A DNA stretch of 64,000 bases from positions 1,757,486-1,821,485 of the forward strand of contig CM119268.1 of the NCBI GenBank assembly GCA_051294375.1, in the 5' to 3' direction. The stretch is from Paraspadella gotoi. Lineage: Eukaryota > Animalia > Chaetognatha. The position numbers and the translations under genes are program-made. Under the pieces are notes generated by a model. That model was not told where the DNA came from. It was given only the letters and a program-made list of their open reading frames with translations, and searched no databases. Below, one piece after another: positions 51,197 to 54,722 of this stretch (positions are counted from its first letter, which is position 1; each line of letters begins with the position of its first letter).

Positions 51197-54722
<3,526 letters not shown>

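What the first reader, a model, noticed from the sequence alone, without database searches (positions are those of the whole stretch)
51856..51870. All three twisters have P1 shrunk to a self-complementary sequence: possible dimeric twister
Seen: between the 4-bp pseudoknot strand and UAA the three candidates carry UGUCGGCA (A), GGCGCU (B, 47364-47369) and AGGCCU (C, 19530-19535). Each is too short for a stable hairpin but is self-complementary when G-U pairs are allowed. Established: minimal hammerheads of animal retrozymes and Penelope elements use palindromic helix III to work as dimers. Inference: these twisters may form P1 between two molecules or tandem copies, staying weak as single intronic inserts and active in multimeric transcripts. 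I do not know of this being described for twister.
Basis: inference. Interest (0 to 1): 0.85.

Follow-up and report, generated by a model that had tools for sequence, protein, structure and literature searches.

The report
Mini-P1 twister ribozymes in abundant repeats
Three very abundant repeat families in this eukaryotic window each carry a twister-ribozyme-like fold whose first helix is cut down to a 6-8-base self-complementary cap; they would most likely still cut themselves as single molecules, and pairing between two copies is an untested possibility.

Summary
UGUCGGCA (51859-51866, +), GGCGCU (47369-47364, -) and AGGCCU (19535-19530, -) each lie between a pseudoknot strand (A-x-G-G) and UAA. 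All three are self-complementary if G-U pairs count, and none folds as a hairpin (MFE 0). A P1-blind twister descriptor finds exactly these three sites; 3 of 500 shuffled windows give any hit. Rfam scores A and C below threshold as Twister-P5 (22.2 and 25.8 bits; cut-off 37.6) and gives B nothing.

All three read as type-P5 twisters: P5, A-rich L2, P2, P4 and L4, with compensatory changes in pseudoknot T1. Each sits in a high-copy dispersed repeat, with depth about 10^3 to 5x10^4 times the flanks.

The dimer idea is not shown. Published work says P1 is dispensable for twister cleavage, so a short P1 need not weaken the monomer. C-family copies are overwhelmingly dispersed, not tandem. B is antisense to its host intron.

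The palindromy is still unlikely by chance (about 5x10^-5 naive, 3x10^-3 conditional). It mirrors hammerhead helix III with 1-2 bp and a palindromic loop. I rate a monomeric mini-P1 twister at 0.5 and a dimeric P1 at 0.2.

The parts
51840..51922 (+). Candidate A, whole type-P5 twister-like fold. P5 is GCUGG 51840-44 with CCAGC 51918-22. L2 is UUAAA 51845-49. P2 is GUGU 51850-53 with ACAC 51870-73. The L1 3' strand is GAUGG 51854-58. T2 is GC 51874-75 with GC 51908-09. P3 is 51877-82 with 51891-96. P4 is CAGG 51898-901 with CCUG 51910-13. L4 is UCCAAAGC 51902-09.
   Evidence: Rfam Twister-P5 22.2 bits at 51850-51913; descriptor hit; read directly. P5 and L2 lie outside the Rfam model.
51859..51866 (+). 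A: P1 reduced to the cap UGUCGGCA (2 bp plus UCGG as a hairpin; 8 bp with two G-U as a homoduplex).
51867..51868 (+). A: predicted scissile U-A step of UAA.
   Evidence: Alignment to the Rfam consensus UAA; cleavage itself is untested.
51730..51975 (+). High-copy SINE-like element carrying A, with a B-box-like GGGTTCAATCCC at 51817-28. It lies inside intron 51695-52121 of a + strand ATG1-like gene, in sense orientation.
   Evidence: Summed depth about 10^3 times the flanks, loose ends at 51755 and 51975, and the X9 GT..AG joint 51694>52122; left flank read; Pfam ATG1-like MIT1 on 51179-51703. The start is approximate.
47313..47386 (-). Candidate B, type-P5 twister-like fold. P5 is GCAG 47386-83 with CUGC 47316-13. 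L2 is UUAAGA. P2 is GGG 47376-74 with CCU 47360-58. Then A-CGG 47373-70. T2 is GC 47357-56. P3 is 47354-49 with 47343-38. P4 is UGA with UCA. L4 is UCCGAAGC 47331-24.
   Evidence: Descriptor hit; no Rfam hit. Family-majority letters at 47353 and 47358 repair P3 and P2 (table 3).
47364..47369 (-). B: P1 cap GGCGCU, followed by UAA 47363-61. The predicted cut is between 47363 and 47362.
47313..47650 (-). High-copy repeat carrying B. It lies in intron 47205-47522 of a + strand gene, antisense to that gene. The window copy departs from the family at 47313.
   Evidence: depth bins 47202-47669, joint 47204>47523 GT..AG, loose ends at 47313. The upper bound is approximate.
19492..19554 (-). Candidate C, type-P5 twister-like fold. 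P5 is UAUCUUGU 19554-47 with GCAAGAUA 19499-92 (8 bp). L2 is AAGA. P2 is GUG 19542-40. Then A-UGG 19539-36. UAA is followed by ACCAC. P4 is CCUG 19516-13 with CAGG 19504-01. L4 is UCCAAAGU 19512-05.
   Evidence: Rfam Twister-P5 25.8 bits at 19501-19543; descriptor hit; P5 appears in the MFE fold.
19530..19535 (-). C: P1 cap AGGCCU, a perfect 6-nt palindrome with no possible hairpin loop, followed by UAA 19529-27. The predicted cut is between 19529 and 19528.
19438..19693 (-). C-family element. This copy is 5'-truncated relative to the family, which continues beyond 19693. Summed depth is about 5x10^4 to 8x10^4 times the flanks.
   Evidence: tables 2 and 7
48385..48628 (-). Second, degenerate C-family copy. 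An internal deletion removes P5, L2, P2 and the T1 strand, and L4 is changed.

Best explanation
Three different high-copy dispersed repeats each carry a type-P5 twister-like fold in which P1 is reduced to a 6-8-nt self-complementary cap, and each is predicted to self-cleave as a single molecule between the U and A of UAA.

Shown:
- The caps and their palindromy.
- The other twister elements: the L1 UAA, P2, the T2 dinucleotide, P4, L4 UCCxAAG(C/U), an A-rich L2 and a closing P5.
- Compensatory change in T1, which is G-C in the Rfam consensus, U-A in A and C, and C-G in B.
- The repeat nature of the carriers.

Inferred:
- That the folds are catalytic.
- That the cap merely bridges the two ends of a dispensable P1 in a monomer.
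- That the carriers are non-LTR (SINE-like) retroelements whose RNA sense is the twister sense.

What the cut does for the element is not known. The site is internal, so it cannot be a simple 5'-end processing ribozyme.
For: 1. A P1-blind descriptor finds only A, B and C in the window, against a mean of 0.006 hits per shuffled window (3 of 500 shuffles with a hit). The stricter form found A and B, with 0 of 300 shuffles giving a hit.
2. Two independent sub-threshold hits to the same Rfam family fall in 64 kb: 25.8 and 22.2 bits.
3. T1 covaries. The strand reads A-U-G-G, A-C-G-G and A-U-G-G against L4 UCC-A, UCC-G and UCC-A. In Rfam's alignment of C, T2 changes from GC/GC to AC/GU.
4. Family-majority letters improve the fold in B. 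At 47358, P2 goes from G-U to G-C. At 47353, a U-C mismatch in P3 becomes G-C. In C, the 19%-share variant at 19499 turns a P5 G-U into A-U.
5. C has an 8-bp P5, recovered by the MFE fold.
6. P1 is dispensable. I read passages in PMC5408937 ('lack stem P1 cleave ... with almost wild-type rate'; env22 forms only two P1 pairs) and in PMC11662667 (no dependence on P1 length or stability).
7. The carriers are repeats, by depth ratios and by loose ends at the element borders.
Against: - None of the three reaches Rfam's gathering score, and B has no Rfam hit at all.
- MFE folds of A and B do not reproduce the twister helices, and z-scores are unremarkable at -1.15, +1.77 and -0.18.
- A has a competing 11-bp hairpin that sequesters its P2 and T1 strand.
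- C's P2 is only 2-3 bp and its register is ambiguous.
- The P1-dispensability data come from open (type-P1 or two-strand) constructs, not from closed type-P5 forms.
- An efficient cut inside the retrotransposition template would seem self-defeating for families this successful.
- A monomer model leaves the palindromy of all three caps unexplained.
- No cleavage data exist; only contigs could be laid, and these show no RNA ends.
Confidence: 0.5

Rival explanations
1. Dimeric ('double') twister. This builds a 6-10-bp P1 and two composite active sites, as in double hammerheads. Dimerisation would enhance or gate cleavage.
For: - All three caps are fully self-complementary, at about 4.8e-5 by window k-mer frequencies. 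Given the outer closing pairs, the chance that three tetraloops are all self-complementary is (6/16)^2 each, about 3e-3 (arithmetic).
- Between B and C the central CG becomes GC. This keeps a pair that adjacent bases can only form between molecules.
- The cap architecture matches hammerhead helix III with 1-2 bp and a palindromic loop (PMC4209133 and PMC7229834 passages).
- No hairpin is possible, while the duplexes reach -8.3 to -14.5 kcal/mol with flanks.
- The carriers are very abundant repeats, the same niche as dimeric hammerheads.
- Among 32 distinct phage-contig closed-P1 twisters with an intact P2, only 1 has a fully self-complementary P1 region. Palindromy is therefore not a general property of closed P1.
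- A self-cleaving template would harm a retroelement, so attenuation of the monomer would make biological sense (inference).
Against: - P1 is dispensable in vitro, so the monomer should not need a partner.
- C-family copies are overwhelmingly dispersed. Head-to-tail joints carry depths of 17-77 against a summed 10^6.
- There are only three families, they may share ancestry, and the pattern was noticed post hoc.
- Whole-molecule cofold does not discriminate. A, B and C give -13.8, -2.7 and -9.7 kcal/mol, against a median of -16.4 for 39 ordinary closed-P1 twisters.
- There are no experimental data.
Confidence: 0.2
2. Inactive relics or co-opted structural modules. The folds descend from a twister but no longer cleave, and they persist only because the repeats are young and homogeneous.
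For: - Scores lie below Rfam thresholds.
- P2 is short, at 2-4 bp.
- The copies are homogeneous: no variant at 5% share or more lies in C's core 19500-19542. Conservation within a family therefore says little.
- An internal cut would destroy the template RNA (inference).
- Deletion variants lacking half the twister exist (table 5c, table 5c).
Against: Three families that differ at most positions still keep T1, T2, P2, P4 and P5 complementarity through compensatory changes. This argues for selection on the fold in the master copies. A published assay reports broad tolerance of twisters for imperfections (PMC11662667, abstract and passages).
Confidence: 0.22
3. Chance look-alikes assembled by a pattern-seeking reader.
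For: In the whole-window Rfam scan, over all 4227 families, the hits have E = 0.32 for C and E = 6.2 for A, the latter as twister-P1. The descriptor was designed after seeing the sites.
Against: The descriptor gives 3 hits against 0.006 expected. Two hits fall in one Rfam clan within 64 kb. Each of the three lies in a different high-copy repeat, and the family-majority letters improve the helices.
Confidence: 0.03
4. For A only: a type-P1 architecture. GGCA(U) at 51863-67 pairs with AUGCC at 51932-36, and the downstream GGGAG serves as the T1 strand, so P1 would not be shrunk.
For: Rfam twister-P1 alignment at 51863-51936, 21.4 bits.
Against: - The gathering score is 67.2 and the in-window E-value is 6.2.
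- This reading lacks the A-rich L2.
- Its T1 would need a shifted register with a G-U pair.
- The upstream reading has UUAAA, a 4-bp P2, a Watson-Crick T1 and a P5, and it matches the topology of B and C.
Confidence: 0.05

Closest known systems
Type-P5 twister ribozyme (Rfam RF02684, clan CL00120)
   Same: The order of elements matches: P2, L1 3' strand, closed P1, UAA, P2', GC, optional P3, then P4/L4, with the open end in P5. The conserved L1, L2 and L4 letters and the T1 and T2 complementarity are present.
   Different: P1 is 6-8 nt in total, where the model has about 3 bp plus a 14-16-nt insert. T1 is U-A or C-G instead of G-C. Scores lie below the gathering cut-off. The host is a eukaryote and the carriers are high-copy repeats. 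In exact-core scans of phage contigs and prokaryote genomes, none of the 3 and 12 matches allowing a 4-10-nt P1 was a true mini-P1. The 32 distinct intact closed-P1 examples had P1 regions of 15-35 nt.
Mini-twister (engineered twister lacking P1; Kosutic et al. 2015, seen only as cited in PMC5408937 and PMC11662667)
   Same: It shows that catalysis does not need P1. This is the basis for expecting monomer activity here.
   Different: That construct is engineered, with an open 5' end and a single nucleotide before the cut. Here the two P1 ends are joined by a natural palindromic cap.
Double-hammerhead: metazoan type-I and Penelope hammerheads with a minimal palindromic helix III
   Same: [quoted passage not shown]
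   Different: It is a different ribozyme class. Helix III is essential for hammerhead catalysis, whereas twister P1 is not. Those hammerheads are typically in tandem repeats or in paired terminal repeats; these elements are dispersed single copies.
Schistosoma mansoni T-variant twisters at the 5' end of Perere-3 (PMC8501958; abstract, outline and passages read)
   Same: They are twisters carried by non-LTR retroelements, with an imperfect or absent P1.
   Different: Those are type-P1. They sit at the element's 5' end, and the P1 5' strand is supplied by the target-site duplication. Here the topology is type P5, the cut is internal (about 90 nt from the 3' end in C), and P1 is a closed cap.

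Membership tests
Twister ribozyme (Rfam clan CL00120) | Score at or above Rfam's gathering threshold | tested here: not met
   There are 0 hits at gathering. A scores 22.2 and C 25.8 against 37.6. B has no hit at E<=10.
Twister ribozyme (Rfam clan CL00120) | L1 U-A-A with the scissile U-A step, and conserved L4 letters (U-C-C-x-A-A-G-C) | tested here: met
   UAA is present in all three. L4 matches in 7 of 8 letters in A and B and 6 of 8 in C. The differing letters are the ones that pair in T1 and T2.
Twister ribozyme (Rfam clan CL00120) | Pseudoknots T1 (L1 3' strand with L4) and T2 (GC after P2 with the end of L4) | tested here: met
   T1 has 3 Watson-Crick pairs in each, with compensatory change (U-A, C-G, U-A). 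T2 is GC/GC in A and B, and AC/GU in C under Rfam's alignment. C's register is ambiguous.
Twister ribozyme (Rfam clan CL00120) | Helices P2 and P4 | tested here: met
   P2 has 4, 3 and 2-3 bp and P4 has 4, 3 and 4 bp in A, B and C.
Twister ribozyme (Rfam clan CL00120) | Helix P1 next to the cleavage site | tested here: not met
   No stable intramolecular helix forms; MFE is 0 for all three. Published work reports P1 as conserved but dispensable.
Twister ribozyme (Rfam clan CL00120) | Site-specific self-cleavage | not testable with these tools
   Only contigs could be laid, and these show no RNA ends.
Dimer-dependent ribozyme of the double-hammerhead kind | Minimal stem capped by a palindromic loop beside the cleavage site | tested here: met
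Dimer-dependent ribozyme of the double-hammerhead kind | The shortened helix is needed for catalysis, so the monomer is inactive | not testable with these tools
   Not tested here. Published data on other twisters argue against it.
Dimer-dependent ribozyme of the double-hammerhead kind | Copies in tandem or close pairs that give multimeric transcripts | tested here: not met
   The window has single copies of A and B, and two C copies 29 kb apart. In the C family, head-to-tail joints are rare, while hundreds of contigs end in unrelated flanks. A and B families were not examined for this.
SINE-like non-LTR retroelement (the carriers) | High-copy dispersed short element with 5' truncation and an internal pol III promoter | tested here: inconclusive
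   High copy number and dispersal are met. The C window copy is 5'-truncated, and depth falls towards the 5' side. A has only a B-box-like motif, and there is no tRNA hit by ARAGORN or Rfam. Target-site duplications and a LINE partner were not examined.
Retrozyme (ribozyme-bearing element propagating through circular RNA) | Tandem or terminal-repeat ribozyme pairs and circular RNA | tested here: inconclusive
   Tandem junctions are rare and also occur in DNA runs. Circular RNA cannot be judged from contigs.

The most novel reading that the evidence does not exclude
These are natural 'double twisters'. The palindromic cap is selected so that two element RNAs, or two copies in one transcript, build P1 between them. 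The full-length monomer that serves as retrotransposition template would then be spared, and cleavage would occur only at high RNA concentration or in multimers. This would be the twister counterpart of the double hammerhead, in families with up to tens of thousands of copies.
Probability: 0.2. Interest if true: 0.8.

Novelty: new variant of a known kind. Interest (0 to 1): 0.5.

Why it matters
Twisters are well studied chemically, but their biology in eukaryotes is mostly unknown. Here a closed type-P5 form with almost no P1 sits in three repeat families that together make up a sizeable part of a genome. Standard Rfam thresholds miss all three.

If the folds are active, several things follow:
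- They would extend the natural sequence space of twister, with a U-A or C-G T1 and a 6-8-nt P1 cap.
- They would link twister to SINE-like elements, beyond the Schistosoma Perere-3 case.
- They would raise the question of how a retroelement tolerates a self-cleaving site in the middle of its template.

The palindromic caps offer a concrete and cheap test of whether a second ribozyme class uses the dimer trick known from hammerheads. If the monomers cleave regardless, the finding becomes a natural confirmation that P1 is dispensable.

Tried and rejected
- The window's own genome is not held, so no genome-wide census of copies or of palindromy was possible.
- Earlier notes of this scan gave nothing by place, sequence or words.
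- Whole-window Rfam at gathering thresholds gave 0 hits.
- The MFE folds and z-scores of the three cores are not informative.
- Whole-molecule cofold and dimer partition functions were rejected as evidence. A control set of 39 ordinary closed-P1 twisters dimerises as well or better in the same model.
- A metagenome scan for A-like cores gave 9 loci, none with a complementary P2, which is the chance level.
- Phage-contig and prokaryote scans for canonical cores with a 4-10-nt P1 gave 3 and 12 loci. None is a true mini-P1.
- A relaxed descriptor (P1 up to 80 nt, any base before AA) added one site at 36664 (-). It has no Rfam support and was dropped as chance.
- A GTCCNAAGYC match at 45411 has no other twister feature.
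- No RNA holder was listed on record. X9 behaves as RNA, with GT..AG joints, but it is kept as contigs, so no ends, strand or cleavage could be read.
- There is no step in C-family depth at the predicted cut. This gives no sign that 3' cleavage products are copied, but summed contig depth is a poor measure.
- The protein-atlas look-up of the TTC21 ORF did not place the organism beyond Eukaryota.
- The MAFFT alignment of the three cores puts UAA in different columns, so I did not use it for pair counting or for a covariance model.

Full report
**Setting**

The window is eukaryotic. A run that behaves as RNA (X9) shows many GT..AG joints. Long ORFs encode an ABC transporter, TTC21/IFT139, an ankyrin protein, an ATG1-like protein and RPAP3. 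No whole genome is held for it.

**The observation**

- A: UGUCGGCA at 51859-51866 on the + strand.
- B: GGCGCU at 47369-47364 on the - strand.
- C: AGGCCU at 19535-19530 on the - strand.

Each is preceded by A-x-G-G and followed by UAA. All three are self-complementary if G-U pairs count. None forms a hairpin: MFE is 0 kcal/mol for 15-nt pieces. As homoduplexes they give -9.5, -8.3 and -9.1 kcal/mol. With one more G-U pair on each side they give -14.5, -11.5 and -13.9 kcal/mol.

**Are they twisters?**

Rfam finds nothing at gathering thresholds. In local searches A scores 22.2 bits and C 25.8 bits against Twister-P5, whose cut-off is 37.6. B has no hit. Over the whole window and all 4227 families, these hits have E = 0.32 for C and E = 6.2 for A, the latter as twister-P1. 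So Rfam membership is not met.

I then wrote a descriptor from the known twister elements:
- a 3-bp P2;
- A-x-G-G;
- 0-12 free bases;
- UAA;
- P2';
- within 50 nt, UCC-x'-AAG-(C/U) with x' complementary to x;
- a flanking 3-bp P4.

It finds exactly A, B and C. Of 500 dinucleotide shuffles of the window, 3 gave any hit. A stricter form found A and B, against 0 of 300 shuffles. The descriptor was written after seeing the sites, so it is not blind. It does, however, put no condition on the content of P1.

Widening the descriptor to P1 of up to 80 nt added one site, at 36664. It has no Rfam support, and I treat it as chance.

**Anatomy**

All three read as type-P5 twisters. The order is: P5 strand, A-rich L2 (UUAAA, UUAAGA, AAGA), P2, L1 3' strand, P1 cap, UAA, P2', GC, optional P3 (present in A and B), P4/L4, then the second P5 strand. 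Coordinates are in the parts list.

P5 has 5 bp in A, 4 bp in B and 8 bp in C. C's P5 is recovered by the MFE fold.

T1 covaries. The Rfam consensus has G-C at the third pair. A and C have U-A, and B has C-G. In Rfam's alignment of C, the T2 dinucleotide is AC and L4 ends in GU, which keeps both pairs. However, C's P2 register is ambiguous between Rfam's reading and the descriptor's.

For A, a rival type-P1 reading uses downstream GGGAG and AUGCC (21.4 bits against a cut-off of 67.2). It lacks the A-rich L2 and a Watson-Crick T1, so I prefer the P5 reading.

**The carriers are repeats**

Laying contigs of three DNA runs and X9 shows summed depth far above the flanks.

| Family | Region | Depth relative to flanks |
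|---|---|---|
| A | 51648-52115 | about 10^3 times |
| B | 47202-47669 | about 5x10^3 times |
| C | 19438-19693 | 5x10^4 to 8x10^4 times |

The tool warns that summed depth is not a copy number, so these are orders of magnitude only.

Borders are marked by loose ends. For C, hundreds of contigs run into unrelated AT-rich sequence at 19438-19440. Beyond 19693 the family continues with a shared sequence, so the window copy is 5'-truncated in the twister's sense. Depth also declines towards that side. This fits a non-LTR (SINE-like) element whose RNA sense is the twister sense.

A has a B-box-like motif but no tRNA hit.

A second C-family copy at 48385-48628 has lost half the twister.

Family-majority letters differ from the window copy of B at 47353 and 47358, and both changes repair helices P3 and P2. 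In C, a 19%-share variant at 19499 turns a P5 G-U into A-U.

No variant at 10% share or more (A and B; 8 table rows not shown) or at 5% or more (C) lies in any of the three caps. The caps are therefore the family sequences. Within-family copies add no independent evidence.

**Gene context**

A lies in intron 51695-52121 of a + strand gene, in sense orientation. B lies in intron 47205-47522 of a + strand gene, but antisense to it. C is not shown to be intronic.

**How unusual are the caps?**

By window k-mer frequencies (4.88% of 6-mers, 2.01% of 8-mers), three self-complementary caps have a joint chance of about 4.8e-5. If the outer 1-2 pairs are granted as a hairpin remnant, three self-complementary tetraloops still come to about (6/16)^6, or 3e-3 (arithmetic). 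Both figures are post hoc and rest on three families that look homologous to each other.

For comparison I scanned IMG/VR for canonical closed-P1 cores.
- With a 4-10-nt P1 region there were 3 loci. All three are really long hairpins with an internal GAGGG.
- With 11-40 nt there were 73 loci and 43 distinct P1 regions. Of these, 32 have an intact 4-bp P2, and their P1 regions span 15-35 nt. Most have outer stems of 6-15 bp, and a few have an outer mismatch. Only 1 of the 32 is fully self-complementary.
- In one genome per prokaryote species, the 4-10-nt pattern gave 12 loci, none with a complementary P2.

These scans demand an exact core, so they under-count. Within that limit, a closed mini-P1 was not found outside this window.

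**The dimer idea**

*For it.*
- The palindromy described above.
- The CG-to-GC flip at the centre of B versus C. This is a pair that neighbouring bases can only make between molecules.
- The close parallel with hammerhead helix III: 1-2 bp capped by a small palindromic loop, inactive as a monomer, active as a dimer or in tandem (passages in PMC4209133 and PMC7229834).

*Against it.*
- A review states that twisters lacking P1 cleave a single nucleoside at almost wild-type rate, and that env22 forms only two P1 pairs (PMC5408937 passages).
- A high-throughput assay found no relation between cleavage and P1 length or stability (PMC11662667 passages). That assay covered type-P1 forms only.
- Tandem copies are rare in the C family. 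Head-to-tail joints carry depths of 17-77, in DNA runs as well as in X9.
- Dimer free energies of whole cores are not evidence. In the same model, 39 ordinary closed-P1 twisters dimerise as well or better.

*An inference in its favour.* A cut in the middle of the template RNA should hurt a retroelement. Some attenuation of the monomer would therefore make sense. I could not test this.

**Literature on novelty**

Searches for twister with retrozyme, RTE, SINE, invertebrate, mini-twister, dimeric and palindromic returned no description of a natural dimeric twister, or of closed mini-P1 twisters in SINE-like repeats.

The nearest published cases are two.
- Schistosoma T-variants sit at the 5' end of Perere-3 (PMC8501958; abstract, outline and passages).
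- A review remark mentions truncated twisters at the 5' end of RTE elements, 'in preparation' (PMC7761336).

The library lacks most subscription-journal papers. I did not read Roth et al. 2014 or Kosutic et al. 2015 themselves, nor any supplements.

**Verdict**

The sites are best read as a new variant of twister: type P5, mini-P1 and repeat-borne. They are predicted to cleave as monomers (0.5). The alternatives are a dimeric P1 (0.2), inactive relics (0.22), chance (0.03), and a type-P1 reading of A alone (0.05). Nothing here measures cleavage.

Noticed in passing
window 51831-51860 (+): The MFE fold of A predicts an 11-bp hairpin (CAU-GGUCACGCU with AGUGUGAU-GUG). It sequesters A's P2 and T1 strand and competes with P5 and P2. 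The family-majority C at 51833 turns one of its G-U pairs into G-C. It could be an off-switch or just part of the SINE head.
   Followed up: partly
window 49776-50243: Another high-copy repeat inside the ATG1-like gene region, with depth 10^2 to 10^3 times the flanks. It is next to a 21-23-bp tandem array at 49898-49996. It has no ribozyme hit.
   Followed up: no
window 14747-15862: A tandem array of a 52-bp unit with about 21 copies, 88% matching. The (GA)n and (TC)n tracts and N runs at 10661-13874 draw spurious microRNA and snoRNA hits in the permissive Rfam scan.
   Followed up: no
window 4113-7755 (+) and 26386-31042 (+): A full-length ABC transporter is read in two overlapping frames (4113-5951 and 5698-7755). 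TTC21/IFT139 is split into 26386-28971 and 29777-31042. Unusually long exons sit beside short introns of 62-427 nt.
   Followed up: no
window 51807-51900 and 19463-19654 (family variants seen only in contigs): Contigs of the DNA runs and X9 include subfamily variants in which part or all of the twister core is skipped or replaced by a few letters. Examples are 51807>51871, 51821>51900, 19491>19550 and 19499>19560. Twister-less derivatives of the same repeats therefore exist (table 5c; tables 5 and 5c).
   Followed up: no
window 19441-19462 (-), 3' end of the C element: The C element ends in a short inverted repeat (UUGGU-UGU-ACCAA) just before its 3' terminus. Pieces of this terminus recur at 3000-3035 and 35114-35144. 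They may be a shared 3' module or fragments of other copies.
   Followed up: no
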